Below are positions 24,159 through 39,882 of a DNA stretch of 64,000 nucleotides, piece after piece. The stretch lies in NCBI GenBank assembly GCA_963730185.1, contig CAVSQW010000006.1, forward strand, positions 160,001 to 224,000, in the 5' to 3' direction. The position numbers were made by a program, and so were the translations under genes. Every line of letters begins with the position of its first letter. Position 1 is the stretch's first letter. Origin of the DNA: an uncultured Gemmatimonadales bacterium (lineage in GTDB: Bacteria; Gemmatimonadota; Gemmatimonadetes; Gemmatimonadales; GWC2-71-9). The notes beneath the pieces are model-generated. The model saw nothing but the letters and a program-made list of their open reading frames with translations. It had not been told where the DNA came from and did no database searches.

Positions 24159-24307
24159 CCCGATGGCCGTGGTTCGTTACCCGTTCTCGGCGTCGGTAGC
24201 CGCTGCTCGGGGTGATCCTGGATCGAGCTGAGGCATCCGCCTTTTCTTGGCTATTCGGCCGCCTCCACCCCTCACTACCTTTGGCCGACGCGACCATCGA
24301 GCCAGCC

Positions 24308-25306
24308 GTGCCGCCCAAACCGAAGCTCCTGCAGACCCTGCGGTCCAATCTTCGCCTCCGGCATTTCAGCCCTCGGACCGAAGCCACCTACGCGGACTGG
24401 GTTCGCCGTTACGTGCGGTTCCATCGCCTCCGTCATCCCAGCGACATGGGAGAGGAGGAGATCCGGCAATTTCTGATCTACCTCGCCCGGGACCGAAAGC
24501 TCGCGCCGAGCACGCCCAATCAGGCTACGGCGGCGATCGTGTTCCTCTATCGGGAAGTGCTTCGCCGCCCTCCTGGGGACTTCGGCCCGATCCTTCGGCC
24601 TCGAACGCCAGTCCGGATCCCGGTCGTGCTGACCCAGGCCGAGGTGCGCCAAGTCGTTGGGTGTCTCGCCGGTACGCCCCGGTTGATCGCCATGATGCTG
24701 TACGGCAGCGGCCTCCGCTTGGGAGAGTGTCTTGCCCTCCGGATCAAGGACCTCGACCTGGCAAGGGGCGAAATCCGCATCCGTGAGGGGAAAGGGTGCC
24801 AAAGATCGGATCACCGTGCTCCCAGCCCGCCTCCGCGAACCCGTGGCGAGCCAGATGGAGCACGTCCGCCAATTGCACGAGGCAGATCGGGCTCACACGA
24901 TCCCAGCGGGGGCTGGGTCGAGCTGCCCGGTGCGCTCGGCCGGAAGTATCCAAATGCGGGACGAACCCTGCCCTGGCAGTGGCTCTTCCCGGCGACCCGG
25001 AGATACCGGGACGCGATCACCGGCCAGATCCGGCGGCACCATTTCCACGCGACGGCGATGCAGCGGGCTATGGCCACGGCCGTGGCGAAGAGCGGCATCA
25101 CCAAGCGAGCCAGCTGTCACACCCTCCGCCACTCGTTCGCGACCCACCTGCTCGAAACGGGCTCGGACATCCGAACGGTGCAGGAACTGCTGGGGCATCG
25201 AGACGTGTCGACCACAATGCTGTACACCCATGTGCTCAACAAGGGTGGACTGGGCGTGAGGAGCCCGGCGGACCGGGGAGGGTTTGACGACCTTCTGCAG
25301 GGATAG
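24308..25306 (+). CDS. intI: Integron integrase IntI (two compensating frameshifts at about 24795 and 24897)
   Basis: [32 protein letters not shown] (alternate frame), IntI patch [51 protein letters not shown]. Start uncertain (24212 or 24308). Confidence 0.95.
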
Positions 25307-27592: not shown

Positions 27593-28889
27593 GAGCAACC
27601 GGGGACATAGGTAACAGAGTTGTCCGGCAACATAGGTAACACTTTGGGCTACCCGCGAATGATGTAATCCCGCTCGTCCAGCTTGGCGAGGAGGATGGTG
27701 TTGAAGTAGATCGCCCAGATGCCGTCGTCCACTTCCTCGAAGCCCACCAAGTGGCCTTTCAGGGGGTTCGAGAGAAACAGCAGCCGGTGCTGGAACCGAA
27801 ACGTCCCGGCCCGCGTGATCCGCTTCACCAGGTAGTGACCGGGATACACCTGCGGCGGGAGCACGCGGGGATAGGGACGCGCCGACGGTTGATAGCGGGA
27901 TGCGGGCGTCGCGCCGCCCAGGGTCGCATGGGGCCGCTCCTCGTTGTACTCCGCCCGGAACCGGTTGAAGGCCCGCTGCTGGCTGGCCGCGTCCCGCCGC
28001 GGCGGCCGGATCGCGGCCCGCTTCAGCGTCCGGTGCATCCGCTCATGCGCCCCGTTCTGCTGGGGCCGGCCCGGATGAATGCGCTGGTGGTGAATGGCCA
28101 ACCGCCACCACCAGACGTTGAGCGTGGTCAGCCCGTGCAAGCCTCCGCTGGCAAGGGGATCCCGTTGTCCGTCCGGATCGCCGTCGGCAACCGTACGTCC
28201 GGAACGCGCGTTCGAAGACCCCGCGTGCGCCCACGGTCTTGGTCGAGGGCAGCCCGTGGCAGGTCAGGAGGAACCGGGTGTGCTGATCGGCGATCGTCAG
28301 CGGGTGGCAGTACACCCCGTCGCCCGTCGGGAACTGTCCCTTGAAGTCCGCCGTCCAGAGGTCGTTGGGCGCCGTCGTGGTCGGGGGCACCGCACCCGGA
28401 TGCTGGTGGGGCCGGCGTCGGCGCCGCCGGGTGAGTAGTTGATGAGGGCCCAGCAAGTCGTTGACGGTGCTGACCGCCGGCCAGGCGGTGTCCGGGTGCC
28501 GCGGCGCGAGGTAGTCCAGGAGTTTCCCCGCGCCCCAGTCGGGATGCCGCCGCCGCGCCTGGACCAGCAGCTCGGCCAACGCGCCGTCGATGCGATGCGG
28601 GCAATGGTGCGAGGCCCGGCTCTGGTCCCGCAGGCCCCGGCGCCCACCCTCGGCGAACCGGATCAGCCACTTGTAGCCGGTCTTGCGGCCCACCCCGTAG
28701 CGATCGCAGAGATCGGTCATGCGGTAGAGGCCGCGCTGGTAGTCCACAATGAAATCCGTCCGCTGGTCCATGCGGTCGGTCTCCAACCAGGGCATCGGTC
28801 GTGCTCCCTCACAGGGTCGACCGTGCAGTTTAGAAGGAGTGTCACCCATGTTCCCGGACAGATCTGTTACCTATCTACCCGGTTTGTAC
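27593..28889 (-). mobile_element. IS481-family insertion sequence
   Basis: About 50-bp imperfect terminal IRs with repeated ATAGGTAACA-like motifs; inserted between the cassette 3 gene and its attC. Confidence 0.88.
27649..28795 (-). pseudogene. IS481-family transposase (frameshifted)
   Basis: MPW..RKTGYKWL, WTADFKG, IRTDNG, QNGAHERMHRTLK, YNEERPH split over three frames. Confidence 0.9.
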
Positions 28890-29717: not shown

Positions 29718-30786
29718 GGCATCAAGGGTGAAGGGCAACAATGGACGTCATCGGACATAGCACTCCTCCGGGGTGCGAAACCCCAATCGATGGCGAGGTC
29801 GGCGGTTCAGGCGGGCCGCGATGGCGGTACAGGTGCGTTGCGTGAGCCCCTTCATGCTGGCGCCCCGGGGGAGATACTGGCGGACCAGCCCGTTGGTGTT
29901 TTCGTTCGTGCCCCGGACCCAGGCGTGGTACGGCGGCGCAAAGTAGAACCGGGCCCCGGTGGCCGCCTCCAGGGCCGGGTACCCATCGAGTTCCGACCCA
30001 TTGTCCGCCGTGATCGTCCAGACCGGGCGGGACGACCGCCGGAGCAGTTGCCGAACCCGCCGATTCAGGGCCGCCGAGGTGCGCGCGGGGAGTTTGCCGA
30101 GGAGGCGGTAGCCGGTCTTGCGCTCGACCAGCGTCACGACGCAGTCCGGGCTTCCGTGCCCTAGCACGGTATCGATCTCCCAGTCGCCGACCCGGCGCCG
30201 GTCCGCCACGATGGCCGGCCGGTCTCGCAGGAGGCGTTTGCGCGGCATCCGCCCGCGCGGATCATGATACCGGCCCCGTTTGAGGCGGGGCCGCTGGCGC
30301 CCGCGGAGGTGGCGGTACAACGCGCCGCCGGCGAACTTGTCCGCCCAGATGTAGCGGTAGATCCTCTCGTGGCTGATGGCCACCGGGCCTGTCCGGTGCA
30401 GGTGCCCGGCCACCTGCGCCGGGCTCCACTGGCGCTCGAGGAGGCCTCGGACGAGGCGCTCCGCCGGGGCGAAGTGCGACCGCCGACTCGCGGCCCCCCG
30501 CCGCCGCGCCGCCTGCTCCTGGGCGGCCTCGGGCTGATAGCTCCCACCCCGCCCCCCATTCCGACGCAGCTCCCGGAGGATCGTACTCCGGTGCCGGCCT
30601 ACGTGGCGGGCAATCGCAGCCGGGCATTCGCCGACCGCCACCAACCCGCCGATCCGATATCTTTCCACCCAGGCGATCTGGTGGTACCTCATAGTAGACT
30701 TCCCTCTCTTGGCAGAGAATCGAAGCCTACGGTATCCCGGGTCACCTTTCCATAACGACTCGGTGTTGCACTTAGAATATGAAACC
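29718..30786 (-). mobile_element. IS30-family insertion sequence
   Basis: Imperfect IRs ggcatcaagggtgaagggcaaca / tgttgcacttagaatatgaaacc flank the transposase. Confidence 0.85.
29748..30692 (-). CDS. IS30-family transposase
   Basis: RHRSTILRELRRN, WSPAQV, GDWEIDT, TADNGSE, RGTNENTNGLVRQYLP, LNRRPR. Confidence 0.93.
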   Translation of the reverse strand: MRYHQIAWVERYRIGGLVAVGECPAAIARHVGRHRSTILRELRRNGGRGGSYQPEAAQEQAARRRGAASRRSHFAPAERLVRGLLERQWSPAQVAGHLHRTGPVAISHERIYRYIWADKFAGGALYRHLRGRQRPRLKRGRYHDPRGRMPRKRLLRDRPAIVADRRRVGDWEIDTVLGHGSPDCVVTLVERKTGYRLLGKLPARTSAALNRRVRQLLRRSSRPVWTITADNGSELDGYPALEAATGARFYFAPPYHAWVRGTNENTNGLVRQYLPRGASMKGLTQRTCTAIAARLNRRPRHRLGFRTPEECYVR

Positions 30787-30961
30787 AAGGCCCGGGGCTT
30801 CGCTTGCCAAGTCGCGGCCGCGCCCCGACGTTGGTTGGAGGATGGCGCAGCCGCTCAGTTCCAATGTGGCGCCCGCCAGTTAAGGCTAGAGCGTTGGGCT
30901 GCGAGGCCGAGTTCCTCGCCCCATCACTGCTCCCGGGACTCACGGCTAGCGCCCGCAACCG

Positions 30962-34655: not shown

Positions 34656-34773
34656 ACCTAACCCGCGCTTGCTGCCGTCGAGGCCAGAGCGATTCGGCCG
34701 CCGCGATGTATGCTTTATTCAAGGATTGCGGCGGCCTCACCCGGCCTCGCGGCGGCAGCGCACGGCGTTAGGC
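34656..34773 (+). repeat. attC 6
   Basis: R'' ACCTAAC (complements GTTAGGT at 31572)...R' GTTAGGC; arms tgctgccgtcgaggcc / ggcctcgcggcggcagc. Confidence 0.9.
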
Positions 34774-37498: not shown

Positions 37499-37559
37499 AT
37501 AGGTTTGGGGATGGCGGCGGCCTCACCTGGCCTCGCGGCAGAAGCGCAGGGCGTTAGGC
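37447..37559 (+). repeat. attC 10 (degenerate R'')
   Basis: The 3' half gcggcggcctcacctggcctcgcggcagaagcgcagggcgtt is identical to attC 11; R' GTTAGGC. Confidence 0.78.
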
Positions 37560-38051: not shown

Positions 38052-38166
38052 ACCTAACCCCGCGCTTGCTGCCGTCGAGGCCACGGCGGTTCGGCCGCCG
38101 CGATGTACTTTCCATCTAAGGACTGCGGCGGCCTCACCTGGCCTCGCGGCAGAAGCGCAGGGCGTT
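38052..38166 (+). repeat. attC 11, R' interrupted by an IS110 element
   Basis: R'' ACCTAAC; ends ggcGTT at 38166; the rest of the box (TAGAC) resumes at 39105. Confidence 0.88.
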
Positions 38167-38269
38167 GATATGACTGGGCTGCTGTCAAGGACCGTGATCT
38201 TCACGCGCGCATGGACTCATCCTCTCGCTCAGCGGGTTGGAGACGAGGGGACGACGGGGCCGGAGCTGG

Positions 38270-38420
38270 TTCGCCGATCATCCTGCTGATATACGCCGGT
38301 CAGCGGATCCGCTCGCCGGAGCGGCACGAAGTGGATGCGTCGGGAGCGACCTCGGTCTAGGCACTCGGGTTCCGTTGGGCTGCCACGTACCGGATAACGT
38401 ACGACGAGGGTTCCCCCAGA
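38270..38420 (-). ncRNA. Candidate bridge/seek RNA
   Basis: CCTCG..CGTTA..GCCTA..CGAGG loop followed by an ACTTC..ATATC loop; these match the attC target and the element junction. Boundaries approximate. Confidence 0.6.
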
Positions 38421-38449
38421 TCGTGCCCCGGACACCCGCCGTCACGACG

Positions 38450-38986
38450 TCAGACCACCACCGGGCCGGGCTCGAGCCAGGCGAGATGCCGCGGGCCCCA
38501 GTGGGGGCCTTCGCGATAGATCAGGCCCCGGCGGGTCAGGAACTTGAGCAGGTAGTGCTTCGACTGGAGGAGCTCGCGTTGGAGCGTCTCCGGGCACCGC
38601 ACCAGATCGCGGACCTGTTCTTCGGCGGCGCTCGGTACCCGCACGGCGGTCAGCTCGCCGGCGCGGAAGAGCCGGACCAGCTGGGTCGCGTCGTACCGGT
38701 CGTGCTTGCGGTGGATGCCGGGTTTGGTGGGGATCAACGACGGGGCGATCACGGTGCAGGCGTGGCCCCAGCTCGTCAGGGCCCGATACAGCACGAACCC
38801 GGCCCCGCTGGCCTCGTAGCACACGTGGAGCGCCCCCTGGGTCGCCAGCCGGGCGAGGTAGCGTTGGAGGACCTTCGGCTCGTTCGGCAGGCGGTTCACC
38901 CTCGACGGGACCGCATCGCCGGTCGGCAGGACGGCCACGGTGATCGATGCCTGGTGTACATCCATCCCGACGTAGATATTAGACAT
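38450..38986 (-). pseudogene. IS110-family transposase, N-terminal DEDD domain only
   Basis: YVGMDVH, CYEASGAG, KHDRYDA; stops at 178 aa and lacks the C-terminal domain. Confidence 0.9.
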
Positions 38987-39132
38987 GGGCTGGTTCCTCC
39001 GACTGGCTGCGACGGTGGGTCGCGTCGCATGTGGCTCTGGCGACTTCGGGGATCCCGAAGGAGCTAACCCACGGCGCTTCGGGGGCCAGCCCAGTCATAA
39101 CTTCTAGACAGCACTCAATCAGTGGTCAGGCC

Positions 39133-39882
39133 GTGGATCAGGGTTCGTTCTACGATGACATCGCCGGGTACTACGACCTGATCTATGCGGATTGGGATGA
39201 AAGCATGCGGCGCCACGGTGCGGCTATTTCTACCATGCTTGGCAGTGCCCCGCCCCACGCGCGCATCCTTGATGTCTCGGCGGGAATCGGAACTCAGGCG
39301 CTGCCGCTCGCCTCAATGGGCTACGACGTCGTCGCCAGAGACTTGAGTCCCGGCGCTATCCGCAGGCTTCAACGGGAGGCACAGGACCGAGGGCTCTCAA
39401 TCGACGCCGCGCCCTCTGATATGCGCGACGTTGCTCGTTCGGTCGACGGACTTTTCGACGCCGTGATTTCGTTCGACAATTCGGTTCCCCATCTGCTGAC
39501 GGATGCTGACATCACCGCGACCCTTCGGGGCCTCAGCGAAGTGTTGGTTCCCGGTGGAGTCATTCTCCTGTCCGTCCGGGACTATGATGGGGTGGACCGA
39601 TCCCCGACTTCGATCCATCGGTATGGGGAGCGAACTCGTCAGGGCTCCCGGTACAGGATGAGCCAGGAGTGGGAGTGGTATGACCCTTCGCACTACCGGA
39701 CGACCATGATCATCGAACGGGAGCAGGAGAAGCGGTGGAGGGAAGTCGTCCGTACCGTGGCCGCGTACCACGCCATTTCGATCCCGCGGCTCCTTGAACT
39801 CATGGAGGGCGTCGGACTTGATGCGCGGCGCGTCGAAGAACCGCCGTTCTTCCAACCCGTCTTGCGTGGACGTGCTGCCTAA
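39133..39882 (+). CDS. Cassette 12: class I SAM-dependent methyltransferase
   Basis: FYDDIAGYYDLIY, ILDVSAGIG, DMRD, FDAVISFDNSVPHL, LVPGG. Confidence 0.9.
   Translation: MDQGSFYDDIAGYYDLIYADWDESMRRHGAAISTMLGSAPPHARILDVSAGIGTQALPLASMGYDVVARDLSPGAIRRLQREAQDRGLSIDAAPSDMRDVARSVDGLFDAVISFDNSVPHLLTDADITATLRGLSEVLVPGGVILLSVRDYDGVDRSPTSIHRYGERTRQGSRYRMSQEWEWYDPSHYRTTMIIEREQEKRWREVVRTVAAYHAISIPRLLELMEGVGLDARRVEEPPFFQPVLRGRAA

What the first reader, a model, noticed from the sequence alone, without database searches (positions are those of the whole stretch)
38160..39110. IS110/IS1111-type element in an attC R' box, with a candidate bridge RNA programmed against the attC consensus
Seen: the element splits attC 11 as ggcGTT|gatatgactgggctg...cagcccagtcataacttc|TAGAC. 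On the minus strand of its non-coding end, a stem CCTCG/CGAGG (38409-38350) encloses CGTTA (38399-38395) and GCCTA (38362-38358). These are the top-strand left half and bottom-strand right half of CGT-TA-GGC, the commonest R' context in this array. The next loop holds ACTTC (38332-38328) and ATATC (38292-38288), the two halves of the predicted circle junction aacttc-TA-gatatg. Known: IS110 bridge RNAs have a target loop then a donor loop with this guide geometry, and IS1111-group elements targeting attC exist. Inference: an RNA-guided recombinase aimed at the integron recombination core, with a TA core. Each match is only 5 nt, but all four are in the expected order and orientation. The left junction lacks one A of the expected TA duplicate.
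Basis: partly seen in the sequence, partly recalled or inferred. Interest (0 to 1): 0.9.

Follow-up and report, generated by a model that had tools for sequence, protein, structure and literature searches.

The report
RNA-guided transposon aimed at integron core
A broken jumping gene sits in the recombination site of a bacterial gene-capture system (an integron), and its tail encodes a guide RNA whose letters track the insertion sites of its relatives; RNA-guided elements that invade these sites are known, but this lineage got there separately and hits the other end of the site.

Summary
Real. A 939-bp IS1111-type element (38167-39105, minus strand; 12-bp sub-terminal repeats, 7+3-nt ends) splits an attC at GTT^AGAC. 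It is non-autonomous: about 585 bp, including the catalytic C-domain, are deleted relative to a copy on contig C14. Its 3' end is a two-loop bridge/seek RNA with compensatory stems. Across 118 homologues the left target guide matches each element's own flank (115, 116, 116, 107, 96 of 118 at positions -2 to -6), including relatives retargeted to non-attC sites; IS621-type handshake pairs covary too. 103 of 120 metagenome right ends abut GTT. ISKpn4, ISPpu24 and ISPa62 insert 6 nt after R'' instead, are 25-31% identical and do not form one clade with these; the nearest named element is ISSfr2 (45%). So: a convergent R'-targeting lineage of a known kind. Against: no RNA data, this copy's guides fit its own site poorly, and about half of the GTT flanks pass my attC tests. 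The scan noted the same idea in other genomes before.

The parts
38052..38166 (+). attC site up to the insertion point: R'' 38052-38058, L'' 38064-38071, L' 38150-38156, R' GTT 38164-38166
   Evidence: close to the uninterrupted attC at 34656-34773
39106..39109 (+). rest of the R' box (AGAC), displaced by the element
   Evidence: same register on C14
38167..39105 (-). IS1111-type element, 939 bp, internally deleted, antisense to the cassette genes
39099..39105 (-). 7-nt left terminal extension; its first two bases are the donor core (CT on the + strand)
   Evidence: 7+3 rule in PMC11187229
39087..39098 (-). left sub-terminal inverted repeat, 12 bp
38450..38986 (-). truncated transposase gene, 178 aa, DEDD domain only
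   Evidence: PF01548 E 1.7e-12; 92% identical to the C14 copy over 172 aa
38471..38476 (-). deletion scar: one CTCGAG where the C14 copy has two, 580 bp apart
38253..38434 (-). predicted bridge/seek RNA, target loop then donor loop
   Evidence: consensus fold and pair counts; model match 147.6 bits, by construction
38395..38402 (-). left target guide (7 nt ending in the TT core, plus A)
38355..38362 (-). right target guide (4 nt plus the complement of the donor core) and 2-nt handshake guide
38327..38332 (-). left donor guide (5 of 6 match to the left end; loose across the family)
38284..38292 (-). right donor guide (7-nt match to the circle junction) and 2-nt handshake guide
38183..38188 (-). 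outward-facing -35 hexamer TTGACA, candidate half of a circle-junction promoter
   Evidence: the -10 at 17 nt is weak here (GAAGTT); function untested
38170..38181 (-). right sub-terminal inverted repeat, 12 bp, perfect match to the left
38167..38169 (-). 3-nt right terminal extension
24212..25306 (+). integron integrase gene of the array (context)
   Evidence: TIGR02249 361 bits, cut-off 265
34656..34773 (+). uninterrupted sister attC, a model of the empty site (context)

Best explanation
The element is a non-autonomous copy of an IS1111-type, RNA-guided insertion sequence whose lineage is programmed against the R' box of integron attC sites. Shown by sequence comparison: the ends, the insertion point GTT^RRRY, a conserved two-loop RNA, and guides that change together with the DNA. 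Inferred from the IS621 mechanism: the element forms a circle joining its 3-nt and 7-nt ends around a CT core; the DEDD/serine recombinase with the RNA binds the target through a roughly 7-nt left guide ending in GTT and a 2-4-nt right guide, cuts the top strand 3' of the core, and exchanges strands. Each core stays with its left arm, so the target TT remains at one junction and the donor CT at the other, with no duplication. The right target guide keeps the complement of the donor core (a G-T wobble on the target before exchange, a perfect pair after it), and handshake bases pair with the incoming strands. This copy lost its C-terminal catalytic domain by a deletion between two 6-bp repeats; it either decayed after insertion or was moved in trans by a copy like the one on C14.
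For: Left guide equals own flank at positions -2 to -7 in 115, 116, 116, 107, 96 of 118 and 61 of 117 elements (5000 shuffles, p 0.0002 each); among 42 representatives under 80% identity 41, 42, 42, 38, 35 of 42 and 25 of 41; non-modal guide letters match 22 of 23, 15 of 15, 18 of 18, 45 of 51. Right guide +1 and +2 match 69 and 64 of 70. First base of the right-guide core matches the donor in 70 of 70 but the target in 26 of 118; core classes (left guide/target/right guide): TT/TT/CT 90, CT/CT/CT 22, other 6. First handshake bases: 67 of 70 (to donor) and 108 of 118 (to target), p 0.0002, as described for IS621 (PMC11208158). The right donor guide follows changes in the 3-nt end (118 of 118 at +2). 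Stems: 95% of cells paired, 14 of 31 pairs with two-sided changes, 0 of 500 shuffles as high, slid controls 31-48%. GTT flanks score as attC arms in 50 of 110 versus 2 of 36 other flanks and 13 of 1500 control sites. An integron integrase was found in 3 of 3 genomes with GTT-targeters and not found in 2 of 2 with only other targets among the copies examined.
Against: No RNA run was listed and nothing was tested at the bench. This copy's guides fit its own site less well than the family norm (5 of 7 and 3 of 4). Its non-coding end folds no better than shuffles (z 0.69) and the single-sequence fold pairs the left guide. The left donor guide is loose (49 of 70 at the last core base, where this copy has G; 23 of 70 at -5) and the second donor-loop handshake base does not match (9 of 118). 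Only 45-60% of GTT flanks pass the attC arm test (scores 9 and 7), against 7 of 8 IS-free window sites. 48 of 166 elements were left out before the counts (42 without the scaffold anchor, 1 alignment gap, 5 irregular junctions).
Confidence: 0.88

Rival explanations
1. The element is simply a member of the described IS1111-attC group (ISPa21, ISPst6, ISKpn4, ISPa25) and nothing about it is new.
For: Same end geometry (7+3), downstream non-coding region, antisense orientation in attC, and published seekRNAs for that group (PMC11187229).
Against: ISKpn4, ISPpu24, ISPa62 and an unnamed relative insert 6 nt after the AAC of R'' in 4 of 5 loci examined (the fifth, ISPa21, was not in an intact attC); their transposases are 25-31% identical to an intact relative of this one; a tree holding both groups together is rejected (p-AU 3.7e-99, quick tree, long branches); the RNA model does not match 6 of 6 such loci at E up to 1.
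Confidence: 0.06
2. One reading: a TA core duplicated on insertion, with one A later lost at the left junction of this copy.
For: Both target guides overlap on TA when read as 5-mers.
Against: The same junctions occur on C14 and in 103 of 120 metagenome right ends; relatives with C instead of T or G instead of A at those places exist, with matching guides (L058, L065); handshake covariation fixes the register at CT/TT.
Confidence: 0.02
3. The RNA guides only a short GTT-containing motif, and attC enrichment comes from the folded or single-stranded state of attC or from survival of harmless insertions, not from sequence alone.
For: The guides specify about 7+3 nt; CGTTAGRC occurs 243 times in this genome while both copies lie in attC sites; about half of the GTT flanks fail my attC tests; a target stem-loop is reported as a second determinant for ISPpu10 (bioRxiv 10.64898/2026.03.19.712850, abstract only).
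Against: Guide letters follow the individual flank out to -6 or -7, so base pairing does most of the work. This rival adds to the best explanation rather than replacing it.
Confidence: 0.3
4. The matches are chance or relics of copied flanking DNA, and the site is chosen by the protein.
For: Each match in this copy alone is short, and this copy's guides mismatch its site.
Against: Closely related transposases with different guides sit at different, matching sites (L055, L060, L061, L201); compensatory stems.
Confidence: 0.03

Closest known systems
IS1111-attC group (ISKpn4, ISPst6, ISPa21, ISPa25, ISPpu24, ISPa62) and their seekRNAs (PMC11187229; Tetu & Holmes 2008 and Post & Hall 2009 seen as titles only)
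   Same: IS1111-type ends, downstream guide RNA, insertion into attC antisense to the cassette genes.
   Different: They insert 6 nt after R'' at the 5' end of attC (PMC3001079); this lineage inserts in R' at the 3' end, 2 nt from the integrase crossover. Transposases 25-31% identical, separate clade, RNA scaffold not matched by my model.
IS621 / ISCro4 bridge recombinases (PMC11208160, PMC11208158, PMC13626964)
   Same: Target loop then donor loop, left guide then right guide, CT donor core, handshake bases after the right guides.
   Different: RNA lies downstream of the gene and reads the strand opposite to it; long sub-terminal repeats; weak protein similarity (E 7.6e-5 and 1.5e-7); a naturally fixed TT target / CT donor core mismatch, whereas the IS621 core-reprogramming test I read changed target, donor and all guides together.
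ISSfr2 (name from the plasmid annotation)
   Same: Nearest named element found: 44.6% identical transposase, 7+3 ends, same RNA scaffold (48.8 bits), CT core.
   Different: The copy examined sits at a non-attC target with a CT core and its own matching guide.
Group IIC-attC introns (PMC3001079, passages)
   Same: A mobile element that invades attC on the antisense strand.
   Different: Ribozyme and reverse transcriptase, inserting near the 5' end of attC; no relation to this protein.

Membership tests
IS110/IS1111 superfamily | N-terminal DEDD (RuvC-fold) domain PF01548 | tested here: met
   E 1.7e-12, residues 6-151
IS110/IS1111 superfamily | C-terminal domain PF02371 with the catalytic SG motif | tested here: not met
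   Deleted in this copy; present in the C14 copy and in relative L011 (NF033542 216.8 bits, cut-off 140)
IS1111 group | Sub-terminal inverted repeats of 11-13 bp | tested here: met
   12 bp, perfect
IS1111 group | Terminal extensions of 7 and 3 bp, no target duplication | tested here: met
IS1111 group | Longer non-coding region downstream of the gene, top-strand match before bottom-strand match | tested here: met
   283 nt downstream versus 119 nt upstream; guide order (rule)
IS1111 group | Transposase of 330-350 aa in the tight IS1111 clade | tested here: inconclusive
   Intact relative L011 is 372 aa and groups with ISSfr2, away from ISKpn4; IS1111 itself was not in the tree
IS1111-attC group | Inserted in attC, antisense to the array | tested here: met
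IS1111-attC group | Insertion at the group's shared position near the 5' end of attC | tested here: not met
   Group: 6 nt after R'' (4 of 5 loci; also L218). This element: in R'.
IS1111-attC group | Transposase monophyletic with ISPa21/ISPst6/ISKpn4 | tested here: not met
   25-31% identity; one clade rejected
Bridge/seek RNA systems | Conserved structure with two internal loops that leave the guides unpaired | tested here: met
   single-sequence folds do not show it
Bridge/seek RNA systems | Target guides covary with insertion sites | tested here: met
Bridge/seek RNA systems | Donor guides covary with element ends | tested here: met
   Right donor guide clearly, left donor guide weakly
Bridge/seek RNA systems | RNA is expressed, binds the transposase and is required for movement | not testable with these tools
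   Needs bench work or RNA reads

The most novel reading that the evidence does not exclude
A bridge-recombinase lineage has evolved a built-in core mismatch (TT target, CT donor) so as to land two bases 3' of the integron crossover while leaving GTT intact; the site stays usable by IntI, and the element rides at the 5' end of the next gene cassette when cassettes are excised and shuffled. GTT targeting would have arisen more than once in this family (the tree forces at least 3 label changes). Against this: the bottom-strand fold of the filled site leaves AAC/GTT unpaired while the sister site pairs it.
Probability: 0.25. Interest if true: 0.72.

Novelty: new variant of a known kind. Interest (0 to 1): 0.52.

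Why it matters
It shows a second, independent route by which RNA-guided insertion sequences have taken integron recombination sites as a target, this time at the conserved GTT core shared by nearly all attC sites. The family offers a natural set of retargeted guides on one scaffold, extends IS621-type handshake pairing to an IS1111-type element, and suggests that target and donor cores need not be identical, which bears on how bridge recombinases can be programmed. It also makes a question left open in PMC11616780 testable: what such insertions do to cassette recombination.

Tried and rejected
Rfam: only a tRNA in the window, no family for this RNA. Single-sequence folding gave no signal. Two regex attempts and one anchor attempt to extract guides failed and were replaced by alignment columns. 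The first attC scan was too strict in its spacer and missed the site itself; the relaxed L-box test still passes few of the window's own sites and fails the C14 site, which is an evident attC by eye, so an arm-alignment score was added. Plasmid pNL194, fetched on a recalled lead for ISPa21, holds no IS110 match. Tetu & Holmes 2008 is not held. PMC5034289 and PMC11322120 gave nothing useful. I considered that the core mismatch would leave a heteroduplex resolved half each way; rejected, since only 2 of 95 elements with a TT left guide have a CT target core and IS621 cuts 3' of the core. The careful tree did not finish; the quick trees were used.

Full report
What is in the window. The window is G000:C6:160001-224000; the three closest named relatives of the protein are Gemmatimonadota assemblies (74-80% identity). 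An integron integrase lies at 24326-25276, followed by about 13 attC candidates counted by eye, 5 of them ending in CGTTAGGC. The attC at 38052-38166 has a 7 of 7 L-box match and a close uninterrupted sister at 34656-34773. It is split after GTT by a 939-bp element on the minus strand, 38167-39105, with perfect 12-bp sub-terminal repeats and extensions of 7 and 3 nt, the geometry given for IS1111 elements in PMC11187229 (passages). The gene (38986-38450) encodes only the DEDD domain. A 1524-bp copy on C14 has the same ends and junctions, also sits in an attC (by eye), keeps the C-terminal domain but is frameshifted near its end; the window copy lacks the part between two CTCGAG repeats. The RNA model finds these 2 copies only in this genome, which is 82% complete.

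The family. A protein search found the family at E 1e-30 in 37 of 401 genomes of the phylum, own genome included. Of 61 genome loci examined, 43 gave both ends, many at sites unrelated to attC. By an arm-alignment score of 9 or more, 50 of 110 GTT flanks look like attC, against 2 of 36 other flanks, 13 of 1500 control CGTT sites and 7 of 8 IS-free window sites (18 short flanks left out). An integron integrase was found in G255, G016 and G356, which hold GTT-targeters, and not found in G141 and G241 (five genomes only, chosen by me).

The RNA. The consensus fold of 40 homologues has an outer stem and two internal-loop domains with all four guides unpaired; 95.2% of cells pair, 14 of 31 pairs change on both sides, 0 of 500 shuffles reach this and slid controls give 31-48% (the structure was derived from the same alignment). 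The window sequence alone folds no better than shuffles and pairs its left guide. From 166 elements, 42 lacked the scaffold anchor, 1 had an alignment gap and 5 had irregular junctions, leaving 118. The left target guide equals the element's own flank at positions -2 to -7 in 115, 116, 116, 107, 96 of 118 and 61 of 117; positions -8 and -9 are near chance. The result holds for 42 representatives under 80% identity. The right guide matches at +1 and +2 (69, 64 of 70) and weakly at +3 and +4 (34 of 68, 31 of 67). The right donor guide follows the 3-nt end; the left donor guide is loose. These shuffles ignore relatedness, but the matched non-modal letters (22 of 23, 15 of 15, 18 of 18, 45 of 51) come from several separate branches of the tree.

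The core. On the cassette strand the donor core is CT in 70 of 70 elements with a left end, and the right target guide carries its complement. Relatives at other sites have a CT target core (22 elements); the attC class has TT in both the left guide and the target while the right guide stays CT-type (90 elements). In IS621 the top strands are cut 3' of the core, the right guides then pair with the incoming cores, and handshake bases pair with positions 6-7 of the other DNA (PMC11208158, passages and section 12; PMC13626964, passages). The same first handshake bases covary here: 67 of 70 and 108 of 118; the second matches in the target loop (50 of 70) and not in the donor loop (9 of 118). This fixes the register and explains, by inference, why the target TT stays on one side and the donor CT on the other without duplication. 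PMC11208158 notes that the first core base is less conserved and that GT, AT and TT cores work; the test described in PMC11208160 changed target, donor and guides together.

This copy. Its left guide matches its own site at 5 of 7 and its right guide at 3 of 4, whereas the C14 guides would match the window site at 6 of 7 and 4 of 4. Decay after insertion or movement in trans both fit; short derivatives of 305, 401 and 515 bp that keep both ends exist in the family.

Comparison with what is known. PMC11187229 (passages, sections 6 and 9, supplement files 1, 3, 4, 6; figures and file 5 not seen) shows seekRNAs for the attC-targeting ISKpn4 and ISPst6 and predicts one for ISPa25. PMC3001079 (passages) places ISPa21 and ISPst6 near the 5' end of attC. 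I mapped five plasmid copies: ISKpn4, ISPpu24, ISPa62 and an unnamed one insert 6 nt after the AAC of R''; the ISPa21 copy was not in an intact attC. Their transposases are 25-31% identical to the intact relative L011, one clade is rejected (p-AU 3.7e-99; quick tree, 35 rows, long branches), and my RNA model matches none of them while it matches ISSfr2. So the element works like a bridge/seek-RNA recombinase and has IS1111-type ends, but fails two tests for the IS1111-attC group. Within the family the GTT label needs 5 changes on a 63-row quick tree, at least 3 forced; the group holding the window copy has only 82% support. The integrase crossover lies between the first and second base of GTTRRRY (PMC8876359, passage), two bases from this insertion point.

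Novelty. Eight paper searches showed no description of an IS110/IS1111 lineage in the R' box, but the library lacks most subscription papers, including Tetu & Holmes 2008; Post & Hall 2009 was seen only as a title. Supplement file 5 of PMC11208160 lists unlabelled target sequences (target_seq136-146) that by eye resemble R' boxes with a GT core, so IS621-like elements may also reach this box; files 3, 4 and 6 of that supplement are cut and file 2 is unreadable. PMC11616780, PMC11089894 and PMC9229058 (passages) cite only the known group. Two preprints were seen as abstracts only. Three earlier notes of this scan report the same idea in other genomes; I saw them after reaching my reading, and they are not independent support. 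Verdict: a real, well-supported new variant of a known kind, represented here by a dead copy; interest 0.52.

Noticed in passing
L214, L215 and L057 (G016): A related element carries a target guide against the left end of another family member; one copy sits exactly at the left junction of the attC-targeting element L057, 3 kb from the integrase. An RNA-guided element aimed at another one.
   Followed up: partly
L032 (515 bp), L141/L142 (401 bp), L178 (305 bp): Miniature derivatives with both ends; L032 and L141/L142 keep the guide RNA and sit at GTT sites, suggesting mobilisation in trans.
   Followed up: partly
L116, L121, L129, L171: Irregular right junctions with an extra 2-9 nt of element end between GTT and the element; possible footprints of repeated or imprecise insertion.
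   Followed up: no
L067, L207, L209, L210-L212 (G356, G267, G239) and L018: Separate branches that also target GTT with a TT core but have different repeats and left ends; possible independent origins of R' targeting.
   Followed up: partly
window 24212-25306: The integrase gene has a second short TIGR02249 match in another frame (24786-24896), which suggests a pair of frameshifts or assembly errors; the C14 transposase frameshift may be of the same kind.
   Followed up: no
G000:C13:210982-211923 and G000:C7:736456-736713: A second integron integrase and a distant IS110-family transposase (26% identity) elsewhere in the genome.
   Followed up: no
window 37500-37559: What looks like only the right half of an attC, nearly identical to the right half of the interrupted site, follows another GTTAGAT; possibly a fused or partly deleted site.
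   Followed up: no
window 27600-28400 and 29750-30790: Minus-strand reading frames inside the array that by eye look like other insertion sequences; not searched.
   Followed up: no
window 39031-39882: The methyltransferase cassette's open frame extends upstream into the element's left end; a likelier start is a GTG just after the junction.
   Followed up: no
PMC11208160 supplement file 5, target_seq136-146 and 1352-1355: Unlabelled IS621-orthologue targets that resemble attC R' boxes with a GT core, one base from the register found here.
   Followed up: no
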